DNA from: Gilvibacter sp.
GTDB taxonomy: Bacteria; Bacteroidota; Bacteroidia; Flavobacteriales; Flavobacteriaceae
Reading direction: 5' to 3'
Length of the DNA: 64,000 nt
Assembly: GCA_039981375.1 (NCBI GenBank)
Contig: JBDXAK010000002.1
Span: forward strand, 16,494 to 80,493
The notes under the pieces are model-generated. The model was not told the origin of the DNA. It made no database searches and saw only the letters and a list, made by a program, of their open reading frames with translations. Positions 35,655 to 41,459 of this stretch are shown in pieces (within the stretch, counting starts at the first letter, position 1; each line of letters starts with the position of its first letter). The translations under genes were made by a program, and so were the position numbers.

Positions 35655-36407
35655 ATGAAGAAGCTATTTGTATTATGTATTCCAATATTGTTGCTCGGTT
35701 GCAATACTGAGCGCTCTTGGAACTGCACACAAACAAGTGGAGAGATCATTCAGAAGCAATTTAGAGTAGGTAATTTTACAGACATTCATGTTTTAGATCG
35801 CGTACAGTTGTTTTTAAAGCAGGGCGAAACCACAGAGGTAATTGTAGAAACTGGCGAGAACCTAATGATAGAAGTCAAGGTGTATGTAGAAGACAATGTG
35901 CTCGTGATTAACAATGCCAATAGCTGTAATTTGTTTAGAGAATATGGAATAACCAAGGCCTATGTGACAGCTCCAGACATCACAGTTTTACGAAACGGAT
36001 CTGGACTGCAGGTTGAGAGTGTGGGAACACTGCGATACAATTCGTTGTCGCTTATATCAGAAGATTTCGAAGAAGAAGATGCCCTTTATACCGATGGCGA
36101 TTTTAGGCTCGATCTAGAAGTAGAAGCCTTGAATATTATCGCCAATAATCTGTCTAATTTTTATTTGTCCGGCACCGCTCAGCGCGGAAACTTTAGAGTC
36201 TTTAGCGGAGACGTTCGTATAGAATCTCAAAATTTAGCTGTACAAGATTTGGTGGTTTTTCATCGTGGTACCAACAAAATGATTGTGAACCCAATAATGA
36301 GTCTAACGGGAGAAATAAGAGGTGGCGGCGATGTGATTGCTGTGAACAGACCAGAGTTAGTCGATGTTCAAGAATACTATACTGGAAGGCTTATTTTTGA
36401 GGATTAG
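35655..36407 (+). CDS. head GIN domain (DUF2807-like) lipoprotein, copy 2
   Basis: Lipobox LLGC; paralog of 33766-34509, sharing VETGENL, YGITKAYVTAPDIT and YTGRLIFED. Confidence 0.78.
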   Translation: MKKLFVLCIPILLLGCNTERSWNCTQTSGEIIQKQFRVGNFTDIHVLDRVQLFLKQGETTEVIVETGENLMIEVKVYVEDNVLVINNANSCNLFREYGITKAYVTAPDITVLRNGSGLQVESVGTLRYNSLSLISEDFEEEDALYTDGDFRLDLEVEALNIIANNLSNFYLSGTAQRGNFRVFSGDVRIESQNLAVQDLVVFHRGTNKMIVNPIMSLTGEIRGGGDVIAVNRPELVDVQEYYTGRLIFED

Positions 36408-37293
36408 TAAGTGAGATAAACAACTCTTCTAAGTTTTTATTCTTTTGATTCAGCTGTAAAATCTTGAGCCCATTATCGTGCGCAAAATCAAAAACTTTTG
36501 CTTGCATGTCTTGAGTACCCGTGAAGGTGAGTTCGTATAAAAACTCATGAATATTTTTTACATCTTTCACGCCCTTTATCGCTTTAAGGGCAACTTCTTC
36601 TACCCGATAATCAAAAGCTACTTGAATGATTTGATCCTGGTCTTTTTGCAGCTCAGAAATTTGCTGGTCGGCCACAATTTTACCCTTATTAATAATAATC
36701 ACACGATCGCAAAGGGCTTCTACTTCTTGCATGATGTGTGTAGAGAGAAATATGGTTTTGTCTTTGCTAATAGATTTTATCAACTCTCTAATTTCGATAA
36801 TCTGATTGGGGTCTAAACCTGTGGTTGGTTCGTCTAGAATTAATACGGACGGATCGTGCAAAAGCGCCTTGGCCAAGCCAACACGTTGCCTGTATCCTTT
36901 AGAGAGACTCTGAATTTTTTTATGGGCTTCGCTACTAAGACCAGTTTGGGTGATAACCTTCTCTATTTGGGCTTTGTCTACTTTATGAATCGAGGCGTTA
37001 AAGGCCAAAAATTCGCGCACATACATATCTAAATACAAAGGATTATGTTCTGGTAAATACCCAACAGAAGACTTTACTTGCTGGTGCTCGTCTGCGACGT
37101 TATACTCGTTAACAATAGCCTCTCCTTCACCAGGCGCGATATAGGTGGTTAGGATCTTCATCAAAGTCGATTTGCCCGCGCCGTTGGGCCCTAAAAAACC
37201 GACAATTTCGCCCTTGGTGACGTTAAACGAAACATCGTCTAATGCCTTTTGATCGGCATAGTTTTTACTGATATTTTTTACTTGAATAGACAT
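36391..37293 (-). CDS. gldA: gliding motility ABC transporter ATP-binding subunit
   Basis: GPNGAGKST, SVGYLPEHNPLYLDMYVREFL, LSKGYRQR and DEPTTGLDPNQ motifs, with a GldA-like C-terminal domain in a flavobacterial context. Confidence 0.85.
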   Translation of the reverse strand: MSIQVKNISKNYADQKALDDVSFNVTKGEIVGFLGPNGAGKSTLMKILTTYIAPGEGEAIVNEYNVADEHQQVKSSVGYLPEHNPLYLDMYVREFLAFNASIHKVDKAQIEKVITQTGLSSEAHKKIQSLSKGYRQRVGLAKALLHDPSVLILDEPTTGLDPNQIIEIRELIKSISKDKTIFLSTHIMQEVEALCDRVIIINKGKIVADQQISELQKDQDQIIQVAFDYRVEEVALKAIKGVKDVKNIHEFLYELTFTGTQDMQAKVFDFAHDNGLKILQLNQKNKNLEELFISLTNPQK

Positions 37294-37341
37294 ATAATAA
37301 GACCGTGTAAAGCTAGTGATTTAAAAAATTGATAAAAAGAT

Positions 37342-37371
37342 TTTGATAAATAAAAGAATTGGCTACTTTAG
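37342..37371 (+). promoter_or_regulatory. candidate Bacteroidota sigma-70 promoter for the aromatic operon leader
   Basis: TTTG (37342-45), N18, TACTTTAG (37364-71). One mismatch to TAnnTTTG, and the spacer is slightly short. Confidence 0.5.
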
Positions 37372-37389
37372 CATCCTTATTACATAACA

Positions 37390-37461
37390 ATGAATCTATT
37401 ACACACTTTTTATAACTATTGGTTCTTTTATTTCCAGAGGGAAATCGGGAATCGTATGTAG
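37390..37461 (+). CDS. aromatic-amino-acid-rich attenuator leader peptide MNLLHTFYNYWFFYFQREIGNRM (not in the ORF track)
   Basis: Translated by hand from ATG 37390 to TAG 37459-61. Codons 7-15 read FYNYWFFYF. An A-rich context (ACATAACA) precedes the ATG. Confidence 0.85.
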   Translation: MNLLHTFYNYWFFYFQREIGNRM

Positions 37462-37480
37462 TGTGTTTATCATATAACAT

Positions 37481-37514
37481 AAAAAGTCCCGAGATATTCT
37501 TGGGACTTTTTTTT
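37481..37514 (+). terminator. attenuator terminator hairpin upstream of pheA
   Basis: AGTCCCGAG atatt CTTGGGACT followed by T8 (37507-37514), ending 8 nt before the pheA ATG. Confidence 0.88.
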
Positions 37515-37522
37515 ATACCATT

Positions 37523-38347
37523 ATGCAAACAATTGCTATACAAGGCGTAAAAGGATCAAATCATCACAAAGCTGCTCAGCTATGCTACGGAGATGCTTTA
37601 AATGTGCTGGAGTGCGATACTTTTGACGATGTCGTGAGTGCAGTGCTTAACCAATCGGCAGACGCTGGAATTATGGCCGTTGAAAACTCGATAGCAGGAG
37701 CGATTCTACCCAATTATGCTTTGATCGATACCAACGATCTCTGGATTGGCAGAGAGCATTATTTGCGAGTGAGCCATAATTTAATGGGCTTGCCTAACCA
37801 AGATTTATCAACGCTAACAGAGGTGCATTCTCATTATATGGCACTCTTGCAGTGCTCTCAGTTTTTTAAAGATTATTCACACATAAAGTTGGTAGAAGAC
37901 ATCGACACGGCTATTACCGCTAAGCGTATCCAAGAAGAGAACATACACGGAATCGCTGCGATCGCTACCAAAACGGCTGCAGATCTTTACGGCTTGCAAA
38001 TTTATGCAGAAGATATTCAGACCATAAAGAAGAATGCGACGCGCTTTGCAGTGGTTCACAAAAACAAGCCTAAAGAAAACAGTCAAATAAATAAAGCCTC
38101 CATAAAGTTTGCCTTAGAACATAAACGAGGTAGTCTTGCAACAGCACTCAATGTGATGAGTGACTGTAATTTGAGCTTGACTAAAATTCAGTCGCTGCCC
38201 ATAGTCGATAAGCCTTTTAAGTATGCCTTTTTTGTAGATGTTCTGTTCGAATCGCCTGCCGATTACGAAAAAGCAAAGGCATTGCTCAAAATAATGGCAA
38301 CGCATTTTAAGGTATTGGGAGAATATCAAAACAGCAAAGATGATTAA
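37523..38347 (+). CDS. pheA: prephenate dehydratase
   Basis: IAIQGVKGSNH, AVENSIAG, SHYMALLQC, NATRF and ACT domain LTKIQSLP. Confidence 0.93.
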   Translation: MQTIAIQGVKGSNHHKAAQLCYGDALNVLECDTFDDVVSAVLNQSADAGIMAVENSIAGAILPNYALIDTNDLWIGREHYLRVSHNLMGLPNQDLSTLTEVHSHYMALLQCSQFFKDYSHIKLVEDIDTAITAKRIQEENIHGIAAIATKTAADLYGLQIYAEDIQTIKKNATRFAVVHKNKPKENSQINKASIKFALEHKRGSLATALNVMSDCNLSLTKIQSLPIVDKPFKYAFFVDVLFESPADYEKAKALLKIMATHFKVLGEYQNSKDD

Positions 38348-39491
38348 GCCGGCCCAACGTTTGCATAACACTCAAGAATACTACTTCTCTAAAAAACTAA
38401 GAGAGGTGAGAGCGCTTATGGCTGCTGGTAATCCTATCATTAATTTAGGAATAGGCAGCCCAGATTTAGAGCCGCCCAGCGAGGTGATAAAGGCCCTAAA
38501 CGAATCTTTGGTGCACGAGGGGGCGCATCAATACCAACCGTATAAAGGTATTCCTGAGTTGCGTCAGACGATGGCTGGTTTTTATAAAAACCATTATGAT
38601 GTTCTGCTAGATCCAGATACACAAGTGTTACCACTTACTGGGTCTAAAGAAGGTGTCATGCATATTTCTTTGGCGCTGCTCAATAAAGGCGATAAGGTGT
38701 TGGTGCCTAATCCGGGGTATCCTAGTTATGGCGCGGTTGCAGAACTCGTAGAAGCAATCCCTATTTTTTATGCCTTAGACGAAGCGCATGATTGGATGCC
38801 AGATTTAGATGCCTTGTCGAATCAAGATTTAAGCGATGTAAAACTTATGTGGGTTAACTACCCTCATATGCCTACTGGGGCCAATCCTAAGGGTGCGTTG
38901 TTTGAGACCTTGATAGCATTTGCAAAAAAGCATAGCATTGTATTGGTCAATGACAACCCATATAGTTTTATTCTAAATGACACCCCTAACTCGTTGTTGT
39001 CATATGCGCATAAAGAAGACCCTTGTTTAGAGCTTAACTCTTTGAGTAAAACATTTAACATGGCTGGATGGCGTGTTGGCATTGTAGCGGGTAATCCGGA
39101 ATTAGTGCAACATGTGCTTACGGTTAAAAGTAACATGGACAGCGGTATGTTTTACGGTTTACAAAAAGGAGCCATCGCCGCTTTAAATTCTGATATTGCT
39201 TGGATGCACAATCTTAATAAAGTGTATGAAGAAAGAAGACTTTGGGCTTGGAAAATTGCCGATGCACTTGGCTGCAGTTTTCATAAAGATGCAGCTGGAC
39301 TTTTTGTTTGGGCCAAGTTGCCAGAAGGCAAAGAGGCCTCTGAAGTTAGTGATAGGCTTTTGCATGAGCACCATGTTTTTATTACGCCAGGATTTATTTT
39401 TGGAACCCAGGGCGAAGGCTATATTCGAATTTCACTGTGTGTAGATCAATCGGCATTAAAAACCGCGTACGAGCGAATAACGACTAACTAA
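38340..39491 (+). CDS. class I/II PLP aminotransferase (probable aromatic/prephenate aminotransferase)
   Basis: NLGIGSPD, NYPHMPTG, DNPY and SLSKTFNMAGWRVG motifs; located in the aromatic operon. Confidence 0.88.
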   Translation: MIKPAQRLHNTQEYYFSKKLREVRALMAAGNPIINLGIGSPDLEPPSEVIKALNESLVHEGAHQYQPYKGIPELRQTMAGFYKNHYDVLLDPDTQVLPLTGSKEGVMHISLALLNKGDKVLVPNPGYPSYGAVAELVEAIPIFYALDEAHDWMPDLDALSNQDLSDVKLMWVNYPHMPTGANPKGALFETLIAFAKKHSIVLVNDNPYSFILNDTPNSLLSYAHKEDPCLELNSLSKTFNMAGWRVGIVAGNPELVQHVLTVKSNMDSGMFYGLQKGAIAALNSDIAWMHNLNKVYEERRLWAWKIADALGCSFHKDAAGLFVWAKLPEGKEASEVSDRLLHEHHVFITPGFIFGTQGEGYIRISLCVDQSALKTAYERITTN

Positions 39492-40372
39492 TGGCACATC
39501 GATTAGAACATATTTATACCATTGGTTTGGGTCTTATAGGAGGAAGCCTTTTAAAAGATTTAAGAATCTTACACCCCGAGGCTAGCCTTTATGGAATCGA
39601 TACCAATCCAGAGCATTTAGAAGAGGCGATTTCATTGGGACTGGTAGATGCAGCAGCTACGATAGACGACTTAAGCAAAGCAGATTTGGTGATTCTTGCA
39701 ATCCCTGTAGATCGTGCAAGGGCTATAGTTTCTGCCGTGTTAGATGCCGTGGCAGATTCGACTTTGGTTGTAGATATGGGGTCTACCAAGGCAGGCATCT
39801 GTGCCGAGGTAAAACAGCATCCTAAAAGACGCAATTATTTGGCGATGCATCCTATTGCTGGTACAGAATTCTCTGGGCCAGGAGCAGCCGTGACAGGTTT
39901 GTTTAAAGGCAAAACCAATATTATTTGCGAAGTAGAAAAGACCACATTTGCCCTACAAGAATTAGGCTTGCAGCTCACCAAAGATTTGGGTATGCGCATA
40001 CGGTATATGGATGCCGAATCGCACGATAAACATATCGCCTATGTGTCTCATTTATCACATATAAGCTCTTTTATGTTAGGTAAAACGGTAATGGATATAG
40101 AAAAAGACGAGCAAGACATTTTTGATTTGGCCGGGAGTGGATTTGAATCTACCGTGAGGCTTGCAAAGAGCAATCCCGATATGTGGGCGCCTATTTTTTC
40201 GCAAAACAAAGACTATTTATTGGAATGCCTTTCTGCCTATATCGCCAATCTAGAAACGTTTAAAGCATATGTAGAGGCAAGCGATGAAGAGCGCATGCAT
40301 AGCGAAATGCAACAAATTAACAAGATAAAAGACATATTGAACGGAATCTCACTAGGGGAACACAATATTTAA
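39491..40372 (+). CDS. tyrA: prephenate dehydrogenase
   Basis: IGLGLIGGS, DMGSTK, HPIAGTE, HDKHIAYVSHLSH and GSGFESTVRLA motifs. Confidence 0.93.
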   Translation: MAHRLEHIYTIGLGLIGGSLLKDLRILHPEASLYGIDTNPEHLEEAISLGLVDAAATIDDLSKADLVILAIPVDRARAIVSAVLDAVADSTLVVDMGSTKAGICAEVKQHPKRRNYLAMHPIAGTEFSGPGAAVTGLFKGKTNIICEVEKTTFALQELGLQLTKDLGMRIRYMDAESHDKHIAYVSHLSHISSFMLGKTVMDIEKDEQDIFDLAGSGFESTVRLAKSNPDMWAPIFSQNKDYLLECLSAYIANLETFKAYVEASDEERMHSEMQQINKIKDILNGISLGEHNI

Positions 40373-40376
40373 TACT

Positions 40377-41459
40377 ATGGAAAATAAAAAAGAACTCAGA
40401 AACTGGCTAGACGCCTTTAATTTAGATCACCCTTTGGTAATCGCAGGTCCTTGTAGTGCAGAAACAGAAGCGCAGGTTTTGCATATAGCGCATCAGTTAA
40501 AAGATAGCGATGTAAGTGTGCTAAGAGCAGGAATCTGGAAGCCAAGAACACGTCCTGGTAATTTTGAAGGAGTTGGGGCTTTGGGTTTAAAGTGGTTGCA
40601 AAAAGCCAAACAAGAAACCGGCCTTATGACCACAACAGAAGTTGCCAACGCCAATCATGTAGATTTAGCCTTAAAGCATGATGTAGATATATTGTGGATA
40701 GGAGCGCGTACGACGGTTTCGCCTTTTATTGTGCAAGACATAGCAGAGGCTCTAAAAGGCACTGATAAAACGGTGCTAATTAAAAACCCAGTGAATCCAG
40801 ATTTATCGCTATGGTTAGGGGCTGTAGAGCGATTTTATACCGCAGATGTGCCAAATTTAGGAGTGATCCACAGAGGGTTTTCTACCTACGAAAAAACGCG
40901 TTATAGAAACAATCCAGAATGGCAAATCGCGATCGATTTACAACAACGTTTTCCAGACTTGCCACTTATCTTAGACCCATCTCATATCGCGGGGCGTCGT
41001 GATATTATTTTTGATCTTTGTCAAACAGCCTTAGATCTTAACTACGACGGGTTAATGGTAGAGACGCATCATACGCCAGACGAGGCTTGGAGTGATGCTG
41101 CGCAGCAAATTACCCCAGAGCGGTTAAAAGAAATTATGGTCCAACTAACAATCAGAAAAGAAGAGGGGTCAGAAGTTGAGTTTAACAACAAGATAAACAC
41201 CTTAAGAACTCAAATCGATGTGATTGACCATCAGTTAATCGAGACCTTAGGAAAACGAATGAAAGTAGCAGACGACATCGGTACGCTTAAAAAGAAAAAC
41301 AACGTGGCAATTCTGCAGACCAAACGTTGGAACGAAATTCTTGGCAAGATGATACTCGAAGGAGAACAACACCAGTTGAGTGAAGAGTTTATCTTAAGAG
41401 TGTTTAAGGCAGTTCACCAAGAATCGATTAATCACCAAGAGCGAATTTTAAGAAAATAG
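40377..41459 (+). CDS. bifunctional DAHP synthase (class I-beta) / chorismate mutase
   Basis: IAGPCSAE, RAGIWKPRT, IGART and DPSH motifs, with a C-terminal AroQ-like LRTQIDVIDHQLIETLGKRM. Confidence 0.92.
   Translation: MENKKELRNWLDAFNLDHPLVIAGPCSAETEAQVLHIAHQLKDSDVSVLRAGIWKPRTRPGNFEGVGALGLKWLQKAKQETGLMTTTEVANANHVDLALKHDVDILWIGARTTVSPFIVQDIAEALKGTDKTVLIKNPVNPDLSLWLGAVERFYTADVPNLGVIHRGFSTYEKTRYRNNPEWQIAIDLQQRFPDLPLILDPSHIAGRRDIIFDLCQTALDLNYDGLMVETHHTPDEAWSDAAQQITPERLKEIMVQLTIRKEEGSEVEFNNKINTLRTQIDVIDHQLIETLGKRMKVADDIGTLKKKNNVAILQTKRWNEILGKMILEGEQHQLSEEFILRVFKAVHQESINHQERILRK

What the first reader, a model, noticed from the sequence alone, without database searches (positions are those of the whole stretch)
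37390..37522. Unannotated ribosome-mediated attenuator that appears to read Phe, Tyr and Trp together, upstream of the aromatic amino acid operon
Seen in sequence: a 23-codon ORF, MNLLHTFYNYWFFYFQREIGNRM*, has 8 aromatic codons among positions 7-15 (4 Phe, 3 Tyr, 1 Trp). It is followed by a terminator (AGTCCCGAG/CTTGGGACT + T8) that ends 8 nt before pheA. Segment 1 (37421-37435, over the control codons) can pair with segment 2 (37440-37453). TCGGGA (37445-50) in segment 2 is exactly complementary to TCCCGA (37487-92) in the terminator's 5' arm, which gives an antiterminator. A ribosome at the stop codon (37459-61) would cover segment 2, whereas one stalled on the aromatic codons would leave it free. 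Established: this is the 1:2 / 2:3 / 3:4 logic of the E. coli trp and phe attenuators. Inference: one leader integrates all three end products, which fits an operon that encodes both the common-pathway DAHP synthase/chorismate mutase and the Phe and Tyr branch enzymes. The ORF track misses it. I cannot tell whether it has already been predicted for Flavobacteriaceae.
Basis: partly seen in the sequence, partly recalled or inferred. Interest (0 to 1): 0.85.

Follow-up and report, generated by a model that had tools for sequence, protein, structure and literature searches.

The report
Aromatic leader-peptide attenuator before pheA operon
A short Phe/Tyr/Trp-rich leader reading frame plus a switchable terminator sits in front of the aromatic amino acid operon of this flavobacterium; it is real and conserved across the family, but it works by the classical trp/phe mechanism and its Flavobacterium psychrophilum counterpart was already annotated in 2021.

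Summary
A 23-codon ORF (37390-37461) has 8 aromatic codons in 9 positions. A 9-bp hairpin plus T8 ends 8 nt before pheA, and the stated 1:2 and 2:3 pairings exist.

It is not chance. It is the only one of 551 small ORFs in the window with 8 of 10 aromatic residues. A covariance model finds exactly one copy upstream of pheA in 79 of 80 related sources.

Across 69 distinct leader peptides, Phe (2-7) and Tyr (2-5) codons are always both present. Trp is a single codon in 40 of 69.

The antiterminator strand co-varies with the terminator 5' arm: native duplex -12.2 kcal/mol against -8.5 for permuted partners (0 of 5000). It begins about 12 nt after the last aromatic codon, at the edge of a stalled ribosome.

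This is a classical ribosome-mediated transcription attenuator of the pheA-aminotransferase-tyrA-DAHP synthase/chorismate mutase operon.

It is not new in kind. Guérin et al. 2021 (PMC9723704, Table S7) annotated the F. psychrophilum orthologue, with a mapped transcription start and expression data. Multi-amino-acid attenuators are textbook knowledge.

Joint Phe+Tyr sensing is well supported by conservation. Trp sensing is optional across the family and untested. No Rfam family covers the element.

The parts
37342..37345 (+). Candidate -33 element TTTG of a Bacteroidota-type promoter
   Evidence: Read from the sequence. It lies 18 nt upstream of the -7 box. Inferred, not tested.
37364..37371 (+). 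Candidate -7 promoter box TACTTTAG (consensus TAnnTTTG). The implied transcript start is near 37377, about 13 nt before the leader ATG.
   Evidence: A TAnnTT[TA]G motif lies within 80 nt upstream of the leader ATG in 62 of 76 related loci, usually ending 10-19 nt before it; TACTTTAG is the commonest form (23 loci). In F. psychrophilum the mapped start lies 6 nt after the TATGTTTG box. The start in the window is inferred.
37390..37461 (+). Leader ORF, 23 codons, MNLLHTFYNYWFFYFQREIGNRM*
   Evidence: Homologous uORFs are found in 79 of 80 related pheA loci.
37408..37434 (+). Control codons F7 Y8 N9 Y10 W11 F12 F13 Y14 F15
37401..37407 (+). 5' strand of the outer helix of the 1:2 (anti-antiterminator) structure; pairs with 37460-37466
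   Evidence: RNAfold MFE. Lacinutrix has ACATAT/ATATGT at the equivalent place (read by eye).
37420..37435 (+). Segment 1, inside the aromatic codons (W11-F15); pairs with segment 2
   Evidence: The 1:2 hairpin alone folds at -18.9 kcal/mol.
37440..37454 (+). Segment 2. Its core TCGGGA (37445-37450) is the 5' strand of the antiterminator.
   Evidence: The core starts 13 nt after the first base of the last aromatic codon and ends 9 nt before the stop codon.
37460..37466 (+). 3' strand of the outer 1:2 helix, overlapping the stop codon
37485..37493 (+). Segment 3, the terminator 5' arm. TCCCGA (37487-37492) is the 3' strand of the antiterminator.
37499..37507 (+). Segment 4, the terminator 3' arm
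37507..37514 (+). U-tract (T8) of the intrinsic terminator
   Evidence: The T-run is invariant in the alignment.
37523..38347 (+). pheA, prephenate dehydratase, first regulated gene
   Evidence: Pfam PF00800, E = 5e-51; NCBIfam.
38340..39491 (+). Class I/II aminotransferase; overlaps pheA by 8 nt
   Evidence: Pfam PF00155.
39491..40372 (+). tyrA, prephenate dehydrogenase
   Evidence: Pfam PDH_N and PDH_C. NCBIfam NF006307, 357 bits against a cut-off of 295.
40377..41459 (+). DAHP synthase fused to chorismate mutase
   Evidence: Pfam DAHP_synth_1 and CM_2.

Best explanation
This is a classical ribosome-mediated (leader-peptide) transcription attenuator of the four-gene operon pheA, aminotransferase, tyrA, DAHP synthase/chorismate mutase.

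How it most likely works:

1. Transcription starts about 13 nt before the leader ATG (inferred).
2. A ribosome translates the 23-codon leader while RNA polymerase moves on.
3. When Phe-tRNA and Tyr-tRNA are plentiful (and, in this genome, probably Trp-tRNA), the ribosome runs through codons 7-15. It then covers segment 2 (37440-37454) on its way to the stop codon and while it sits there. Segments 3 and 4 form the hairpin followed by U8, and transcription ends at about 37510-37514, before pheA.
4. When a charged aromatic tRNA is scarce, the ribosome stalls inside the aromatic run. It covers segment 1 and leaves segment 2 exposed just past its front edge. TCGGGA pairs with TCCCGA in the terminator's 5' arm. 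The terminator cannot form, and the operon is transcribed.
5. With no translation at all, segments 1 and 2 pair with each other and the terminator forms.

What is shown here: the sequence elements, their conservation, the co-variation of segments 2 and 3, and the spacing.

What is inferred: that the leader is translated, that transcripts end prematurely in this organism, and which amino acids actually modulate read-through.
For: - Anatomy: all elements are present at the stated coordinates. In isolation the three alternative structures have nearly the same energy: 1:2 at -18.9, antiterminator at -17.9 and terminator at -17.8 kcal/mol. The order of synthesis and the ribosome position can therefore decide the outcome.
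- Conservation of the uORF: an aromatic-rich uORF lies upstream of pheA in Lacinutrix, in the metagenomic Flavobacteriaceae loci, and in Tenacibaculum, Kordia and Maribacter. There are 69 distinct peptides of 15-27 residues.
- One family, one copy per locus: covariance model R1 gives one hit per source, always upstream of pheA, in 79 of 80 sources. The window scores 59.9 bits, E = 1e-7.
- Terminator: 5 of 7 stem pairs show compensatory double changes.
- Antiterminator: the native segment 2:3 duplex averages -12.2 kcal/mol. Leaders paired with other loci's terminators average -8.5 +/- 0.3 (0 of 5000 permutations reach the native value), and shuffled segment 2 zones average -5.4.
- Matching cores: the terminator core and its exact complement in the leader go together. 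ATCCT with AGGAT in 14 of 14 loci, GTCCC with GGGAC in 11 of 15, GTCTC with GAGAC in 20 of 29, and ATCCC with GGGAT in 2 of 2. Off-diagonal matches are few (up to 5 of 29).
- Spacing: segment 2 starts 9-16 nt (median 12) after the first base of the last aromatic codon. The stop codon, in contrast, lies anywhere from 24 nt after the start of segment 2 to 8 nt before it.
- Footprint model: with a 28-nt ribosome footprint, segment 3 loses its upstream partner exactly when the A site passes the last aromatic codon. The median probability falls from 0.70-0.80 to 0.23-0.38.
- 1:2 structure: segment 2 is predicted to be paired with upstream sequence in 71 of 72 loci.
- RNA rather than peptide: frameshifted and early-stop variants keep the nucleotide sequence downstream of the aromatic run.
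- Operon: pheA-aminotransferase-tyrA-DAHP synthase/chorismate mutase is present in 54 of 55 loci with enough downstream sequence.
- Experimental support from an orthologue: the F. psychrophilum leader is 76% identical to L077 and L079 and 63% identical to the window. It has a mapped transcription start. In some conditions its 5' region is highly expressed (log2 11.5-12.4) while pheA stays low (5.9-7.9). In the conditions where pheA is highest both are high (12.1 and 11); the authors report maximal expression of the operon in minimal nutrient media. The authors call it a leader peptide attenuation element (PMC9723704).
Against: - There is no direct evidence from this organism. The three RNA-seq runs carrying its species label gave no reads on the region.
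- The window's antiterminator core is only 6 bp (-10.3 kcal/mol as a duplex), among the shortest in the family.
- Equilibrium modelling is not robust. Without the U-tract, terminator probability drops to 0.07-0.28 for stalls at codons 9-11. With the A5/U5 extension included, the terminator remains the MFE in every state. The argument therefore depends on kinetics, that is, on the order of synthesis.
- Column-based covariation of the antiterminator could not be shown cleanly. In both the MAFFT and the model-based alignments the loci fall into two registers: 63.9% of cells paired, against 62.6% when the partner is slid by +1.
- The loci are phylogenetically related, so the permutation figures overstate independence.
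Confidence: 0.85

Rival explanations
1. Same attenuator, but effectively a Phe-only sensor. The Tyr and Trp codons would be tolerated because they are U-rich or serve RNA structure, and would not modulate read-through under physiological conditions.
For: In C. glutamicum the aroR leader contains Phe-Tyr-Phe, yet it is reported to respond to Phe limitation and not to Tyr availability (PMC11802643). Phe codons are the most frequent (mean 4.9 per leader) and form the 3' end of the run next to segment 2 in most loci. Trp is absent from 29 of 69 leaders.
Against: Every one of the 69 leaders has at least 2 Tyr codons. Some are Tyr-dominated, for example MKNTLFNYNYSYYFYTEADRTL with 2 Phe and 5 Tyr. 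The pheL leaders of gamma-proteobacteria are described as carrying runs of Phe codons (PMC3082878, abstract); from my own knowledge of E. coli, pheL precedes an operon that makes only Phe and contains no Tyr codon. Here the operon also encodes tyrA. UAU/UAC interrupts the pyrimidine tract, so it would not be favoured by pairing with the purine-rich partner alone (inference).
Confidence: 0.25
2. The short ORF is not translated. The leader would be a structured RNA switch operated by a protein, a tRNA (T-box-like) or a metabolite (riboswitch) that chooses between the antiterminator and the terminator.
For: Bacteroidota mRNAs lack Shine-Dalgarno sequences, so translation cannot be read from the sequence. 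The RNA downstream of the aromatic run is conserved as RNA rather than as peptide.
Against: An in-frame start codon (ATG, or GTG in L060), an open frame across 15-27 codons in AT-rich DNA, and 6-11 aromatic codons are kept in all but one locus, even though the nucleotide sequence differs widely. Synonymous TTT/TTC and TAT/TAC alternate freely (219/118 and 178/61). The conserved spacing is between the last aromatic codon and segment 2, which only makes sense for a ribosome. There is no match to a T-box or a riboswitch family in Rfam 15.
Confidence: 0.04
3. The hairpin plus T8 is an ordinary, possibly bidirectional, gene-end terminator, and the aromatic ORF is a chance product of AT-rich intergenic DNA.
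For: The hairpin is flanked by A5 on one side and T8 on the other, so it could terminate in both directions.
Against: No gene ends here. The upstream gene gldA is divergent, with its start codon at 37293 on the minus strand, and pheA starts 8 nt downstream. The ORF is a 1-in-551 outlier and arises in 3 of 3000 shuffles. The ORF, the terminator and the matching antiterminator recur in 79 of 80 loci.
Confidence: 0.01

Closest known systems
pheA leader of Flavobacterium psychrophilum (5' region THC0290_N_0195; Guérin et al. 2021, ISME Commun, PMC9723704, SI D9 and Table S7)
   Same: An orthologous element in the same place, between divergent gldA and pheA. It has the same kind of peptide (MNTNNTFYSNNSFYFYWNIGRDCYMVI, with Phe, Tyr and one Trp). 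It has a hairpin-plus-U-run terminator just before pheA and the same antiterminator logic (GGGATTGT with ACAATCCC). It is 63% identical in nucleotide sequence to the window's leader and 76% identical to L077 and L079. The authors annotated it as a leader peptide attenuation element, mapped its transcription start, and noted conservation in other Flavobacteriaceae genera and the absence of an Rfam hit.
   Different: The window's peptide is shorter (23 against 27 residues), and its segment 2/3 core is CGGGA/TCCCG rather than GGGATTGT/ACAATCCC. In the window tyrA is part of the operon; in F. psychrophilum the listed genes are pheA, aspC3 and a DAHP synthase that has its own transcription start. 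The paper gives no comparative structural analysis and does not say which amino acids are sensed; it labels the element 'phenylalanine biosynthesis'.
E. coli pheL-pheA and trpL-trpEDCBA attenuators (Rfam Phe_leader RF01859, Trp_leader)
   Same: The same mechanism: a leader ORF with control codons, 1:2 / 2:3 / 3:4 alternative pairings, and an intrinsic terminator before the first gene.
   Different: There is no sequence or structure homology: Phe_leader scores 20.9 bits against a gathering score of 55. pheL is described as carrying runs of Phe codons; from my own knowledge of E. coli it precedes an operon that makes only Phe. Here Phe and Tyr codons are interleaved, with or without one Trp, before an operon that serves Phe, Tyr and the common pathway.
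Corynebacterium glutamicum aroR leader upstream of the aroF (DAHP synthase) operon (Neshat et al. 2014, as summarised in PMC11802643)
   Same: A leader-peptide attenuator with mixed aromatic control codons (Phe-Tyr-Phe) in front of a DAHP synthase operon.
   Different: It comes from an unrelated phylum and has an unrelated sequence, with only three control codons. It was tested experimentally and is reported to respond to Phe and not to Tyr.
Multivalent attenuators of E. coli (thr: Thr+Ile; ilvGMEDA: Leu+Val+Ile). Recalled from textbook knowledge, not checked here.
   Same: One leader peptide carries codons for several amino acids whose synthesis depends on the operon.
   Different: Different pathways and unrelated sequences.
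Bacteroid-trp leader (Rfam RF01692; Weinberg et al. 2010, PMC2864571)
   Same: A leader element upstream of an aromatic (trp) biosynthesis operon in the same phylum. It was mapped in F. psychrophilum upstream of trpE.
   Different: It is a separate family. It gave no match at E <= 10 in the pheA leader region and none at gathering score anywhere in the window.

Membership tests
Classical ribosome-mediated (leader-peptide) transcription attenuator | A short ORF in the 5' leader, enriched in codons for the amino acid(s) made by the operon | tested here: met
   8 aromatic codons in 9 positions. It is unique among 551 small ORFs in the window, and the operon makes Phe and Tyr.
Classical ribosome-mediated (leader-peptide) transcription attenuator | An intrinsic terminator between the leader ORF and the first structural gene | tested here: met
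   A 9-bp stem plus T8 at 37485-37514. It is conserved, with compensatory changes in 5 of 7 pairs.
Classical ribosome-mediated (leader-peptide) transcription attenuator | An antiterminator whose 3' strand overlaps the terminator's 5' arm | tested here: met
   TCGGGA with TCCCGA in the window. Across the family the native duplex averages -12.2 against -8.5 kcal/mol for permuted partners, 0 of 5000. The table of matching cores is diagonal. The column-based count was not decisive because the loci fall into two registers.
Classical ribosome-mediated (leader-peptide) transcription attenuator | An anti-antiterminator (1:2) that includes the control codons and sequesters segment 2 | tested here: met
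   Predicted in the window (-18.9 kcal/mol). Segment 2 is paired with upstream sequence with P >= 0.5 in 71 of 72 loci, with a median z of -2.6. This rests on prediction only; no covariation test was made.
Classical ribosome-mediated (leader-peptide) transcription attenuator | Spacing such that a stalled ribosome frees segment 2 and a ribosome that has read through covers it | tested here: met
   Segment 2 starts 9-16 nt (median 12) after the last aromatic codon. In the window its core starts 13 nt after that codon and ends 9 nt before the stop codon. The footprint model agrees.
Classical ribosome-mediated (leader-peptide) transcription attenuator | The leader is translated, a premature 3' end occurs at the terminator, and read-through rises when the cognate amino acid is limiting | not testable with these tools
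   No RNA reads for this organism. The F. psychrophilum orthologue shows leader and pheA expression uncoupled across conditions.
Rfam Phe_leader (RF01859) | A score at or above the family's gathering score of 55 bits | tested here: not met
   20.9 bits, E = 1.1. No Rfam family reaches its gathering score anywhere in the window.
Rfam Bacteroid-trp (RF01692) | A match to the covariance model | tested here: not met
   Not among the matches at E <= 10 in 36800-38000, nor at gathering score in the whole window.
Flavobacteriaceae pheA leader (F. psychrophilum THC0290_N_0195 type) | Sequence homology to the published element and the same position upstream of pheA | tested here: met
   Model R1, built from 72 such leaders including the window's own (so that score is partly circular), scores the window at 59.9 bits, E = 1e-7. 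L077 and L079 are 76% identical to the published 170-nt sequence, and the window is 63% identical. The gldA<>pheA neighbourhood is shared.

The most novel reading that the evidence does not exclude
The leader could be a true multi-input sensor in which limitation of Phe, Tyr or, in this genome and about 58% of distinct leader peptides, Trp each independently triggers read-through. The weight of each input would be set by where its codons lie relative to the 12-13-nt spacing before segment 2. A single element would then match expression of the DAHP synthase in this operon, the entry step of the common pathway, to all three end products. A further possibility not excluded is that the abundant terminated leader RNA also acts in trans, as the trp attenuator RNA rnTrpL of Sinorhizobium does (abstract of PMC7968998).
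Probability: 0.25. Interest if true: 0.5.

Novelty: new member of a known kind. Interest (0 to 1): 0.3.

Why it matters
Amino acid biosynthesis control in Bacteroidota is poorly charted. This phylum lacks Shine-Dalgarno-led initiation and uses unusual promoters, so clear evidence that classical ribosome-coupled attenuation operates there is useful.

What this analysis adds to the 2021 annotation:

- A family-wide picture: about 80 loci and 69 distinct peptides.
- A co-varying antiterminator.
- A fixed spacing between the last control codon and the antiterminator.
- The rule that Phe and Tyr codons are always both present, while Trp is optional.

This is enough to seed an Rfam family and to improve annotation of Flavobacteriaceae genomes. 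It also gives clean hypotheses for reporter experiments. It does not change how attenuation is understood.

Tried and rejected
- Column-based covariation of the antiterminator, MAFFT alignments: the full leaders (A2) and the cut-down segment 2 zone plus terminator (A3) both put the loci in two or three registers that differ by 1-2 nt.
- Column-based covariation, model-based alignment: covariance model R1 was given the antiterminator as its structure. Its alignment (A4) did not resolve the registers either: 63.9% of cells paired against 62.6% at slide +1. I relied instead on alignment-free tests.
- Structure-blind anchoring of segment 2 with a Gibbs motif sampler: the best-scoring solution anchored on the downstream TTGT. 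The register that fits the structure was only a lower-scoring local optimum, so I did not use it.
- RNA evidence for this organism: runs X24, X29 and X30, which carry the same species label, gave 0 reads on 37250-38050.
- RNA evidence from related Flavobacterium species: RNA-run contigs span the leader and pheA without a break. Contigs cannot show 3' ends, and DNA carry-over cannot be excluded, so this is uninformative.
- Equilibrium modelling of terminator probability against ribosome position gave opposite pictures depending on whether the U-tract was included. I kept only the segment 2 accessibility result.
- The single genome-contig scan returned only two relevant loci, so the spread beyond Flavobacteriaceae could not be measured.
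- One literature query was malformed and returned nothing.
- Rejected readings: a gene-end terminator, because no gene ends there; and a T-box or riboswitch, because of the ORF conservation and the lack of any Rfam match.

Full report
**1. The observation.** The sequence is as described.
- The ORF at 37390-37461 reads MNLLHTFYNYWFFYFQREIGNRM*. Positions 7-15 hold 4 Phe, 3 Tyr and 1 Trp.
- AGTCCCGAG (37485-37493) pairs with CTTGGGACT (37499-37507). T8 follows at 37507-37514, and the pheA ATG is 8 nt further on, at 37523.
- TCGGGA (37445-37450) is the exact complement of TCCCGA (37487-37492).
It adds an outer helix, 37401-37407 with 37460-37466, and the terminator.
- The whole leader folds at -38.1 kcal/mol, z = -4.4.
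- The downstream genes are prephenate dehydratase, an aminotransferase, prephenate dehydrogenase and a DAHP synthase-chorismate mutase fusion. The divergent upstream gene is gldA.
- The ORF is not a product of AT-rich DNA. Of 551 ATG-ORFs of 12-35 codons in the window, it alone has 8 of 10 aromatic residues, and the next best has 6. Only 3 of 3000 shuffles of the intergenic region give an ORF with at least 7 of 10.

**2. Relatives.**
- A genome scan gave two Lacinutrix loci. L001 has MNTIQKTYYSWTYFFFSEKNETTYM* followed by a terminator.
- A metagenome scan with a PheA alignment gave 80 loci with 54-62% PheA identity.
- Nearly every locus with enough upstream sequence has a short ORF with 7-11 aromatic codons, followed by a hairpin and a T-run.
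- Four loci that my filters missed also have it, one of them with a GTG start.
- Named genomes show the same element: Tenacibaculum soleae (MTLQNIWQGFYFYFYFFNKS), Kordia antarctica (MFNTNYLWQGYFYFFFYRKKQELLVVYS) and a Maribacter contig (MTKQYFWTGFYFYFFFKRGTGLF).
- A covariance model built from 72 leaders finds exactly one hit per source, always upstream of pheA, in 79 of 80 sources. It finds only one hit in the 64-kb window, at 59.9 bits.
- The one exception, L002, has an in-frame TAA at codon 5 and has lost the terminator.
- The operon pheA-aminotransferase-tyrA-DAHP synthase/chorismate mutase is present in 54 of 55 loci that extend far enough.

**3. The peptides**.
- There are 69 distinct sequences of 15-27 residues, with a median of 23.
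- Phe: 2-7 per peptide, mean 4.9. Tyr: 2-5, mean 3.5. Both are always present.
- Trp: exactly one codon in 40 of 69 peptides, and never two.
- Synonymous codons alternate: TTT 219, TTC 118, TAT 178, TAC 61.
- The part after the aromatic run is not conserved as peptide. Several lineages stop right before or inside segment 2, or reach the same nucleotides in another frame, while the nucleotide sequence is kept.

**4. The RNA switch.**
- Terminator: it co-varies, with 5 of 7 pairs showing double changes.
- Antiterminator: I used alignment-free tests, because the alignments put the loci in different registers.
  - The best duplex between the 30-45 nt after the aromatic run and the locus's own terminator 5' arm averages -12.2 kcal/mol.
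  - Arms from other loci give -8.5 +/- 0.3, and 0 of 5000 permutations reach the native value. Shuffled leader zones give -5.4.
  - The terminator core predicts the leader core: ATCCT with AGGAT in 14 of 14 loci, GTCCC with GGGAC in 11 of 15 (I read the rest, by eye, as G-U variants), GTCTC with GAGAC in 20 of 29, and ATCCC with GGGAT in 2 of 2.
- Spacing: segment 2 begins 9-16 nt (median 12) after the first base of the last aromatic codon. The position of the stop codon relative to segment 2 varies by more than 30 nt.
- Footprint model: with a 28-nt footprint, segment 3 keeps an upstream partner while the A site is at or before the last aromatic codon, and loses it from the next codon on.
- 1:2 structure: segment 2 is predicted to pair back into the aromatic-codon region in 71 of 72 loci.
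- Energies in the window: the three structures are nearly equal, 1:2 at -18.9, 2:3 at -17.9 and 3:4 at -17.8 kcal/mol. The choice is therefore plausibly kinetic. Equilibrium terminator probabilities were not robust to including the U-tract.

**5. Promoter (inferred).**
- TTTG (37342-37345) and TACTTTAG (37364-37371) fit the Bacteroidota -33/-7 pattern.
- A TAnnTT[TA]G box lies 10-19 nt before the leader ATG in most loci; it is present in 62 of 76.
- In F. psychrophilum the mapped start is 6 nt after the box. That puts the start in the window near 37377.

**6. Direct evidence.**
- None could be obtained for this organism.
- For the F. psychrophilum orthologue, Guérin et al. report a mapped transcription start and a 170-nt structured 5' region.
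- Their expression table shows the 5' region at log2 11.5-12.4 in some conditions where pheA is at 5.9-7.9. Both are high in the conditions where pheA peaks; the authors report maximal expression of the operon in minimal nutrient media. This is the behaviour expected of an attenuator.

**7. What is known.**
[quoted passage not shown] It states that the pheA 5' element is conserved in other Flavobacteriaceae genera and has no Rfam hit.
- L077 and L079 are 76% identical to the published sequence, and the window is 63% identical.
- A putative attenuator before the Bacteroides thetaiotaomicron pheA>hisHb>aroA-aroQ>tyrA operon was listed in 2005.
- A mixed Phe-Tyr-Phe leader before a DAHP synthase operon is known in C. 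glutamicum and is reported to respond to Phe only.
- Rfam 15 has no model that matches. Phe_leader scores 20.9 bits against a gathering score of 55, and there is nothing at gathering score in the whole window.

**8. Verdict.**
- It is an orthologue of an element already annotated in the literature, and it works by a textbook mechanism. I rate it a new member of a known kind, of modest interest.
- Joint Phe and Tyr sensing is supported by the universal co-occurrence of both codons before an operon that makes both amino acids. I put it at about 0.6.
- Trp sensing is possible here, since W11 lies inside segment 1. It is optional across the family and untested. I put it at about 0.3.

Noticed in passing
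window 36391-37293 (-): The divergent upstream gene is gldA, the gliding-motility ABC transporter ATPase (TIGR03522, 449 bits against a cut-off of 402.6). The gldA<>pheA-leader neighbourhood recurs in F. psychrophilum and in at least 27 related loci. The two promoters therefore share a roughly 95-nt intergenic stretch.
   Followed up: partly
L002 1130-1270: In this Lacinutrix MAG the leader has an in-frame TAA at codon 5 and the terminator is deleted. Its close relative L054 keeps both. This is either a natural loss of attenuation or an assembly error. It is the only one of 80 sources without a model hit.
   Followed up: partly
L088 468-1000; also L011, L012, L019, L033: Some loci carry 100-400 nt inserted between the attenuator's terminator and pheA. 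In Kordia antarctica the leader starts 528 nt upstream of pheA. Several of these inserts contain GC-rich hairpins such as CCCCCTCCTTCGGAGGGG. They could be inserted repeat elements or further regulatory structures.
   Followed up: no
L027, L039, L040, L080 (stop just before segment 2); L007, L025, L030, L058 (stop inside it): Early-stop and frameshift variants of the leader keep the downstream nucleotides (for example GGATTGT...ATGGTTATTTGA) while changing or ending the peptide. The 3' part of the leader ORF is therefore conserved as RNA and not as protein.
   Followed up: partly
window 37455-37481: The linker between the stop codon and the terminator can form its own small hairpin inside the antiterminator loop. 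This lowers the cost of closing the 6-bp 2:3 helix, so the antiterminator as a whole folds at -17.9 kcal/mol. AT-rich palindromes occupy the same place in other loci (read by eye).
   Followed up: no
window 37485-37514: The consensus terminator scan did not report this hairpin, although it is the strongest terminator-like structure in the region. The likely reason is that the A5/U5 extension of the stem absorbs the T-run.
   Followed up: no
window 37520-37523: The public gene call for pheA is 275 aa, which means it starts 3 nt upstream of the ATG at 37523. ATG 37523 fits the alignment with relatives better.
   Followed up: no
window 38340-38347, 39491, 40372-40377: The operon genes are tightly packed. 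pheA and the aminotransferase overlap by 8 nt, the aminotransferase and tyrA by 1 nt, and tyrA and the DAHP synthase/chorismate mutase gene are 4 nt apart. This suggests translational coupling within one transcript.
   Followed up: no
window 1-64000: No Rfam family reaches its gathering score and ARAGORN finds no tRNA or tmRNA gene anywhere in the 64-kb window.
   Followed up: yes
L083 4989-6938: One Flavobacterium-like locus has pheA followed directly by the DAHP synthase/chorismate mutase gene, with no aminotransferase or tyrA in between. Its leader (MLTNSTFFYNNSFYFFYIKKRDCFAII) still carries 3 Tyr codons.
   Followed up: no
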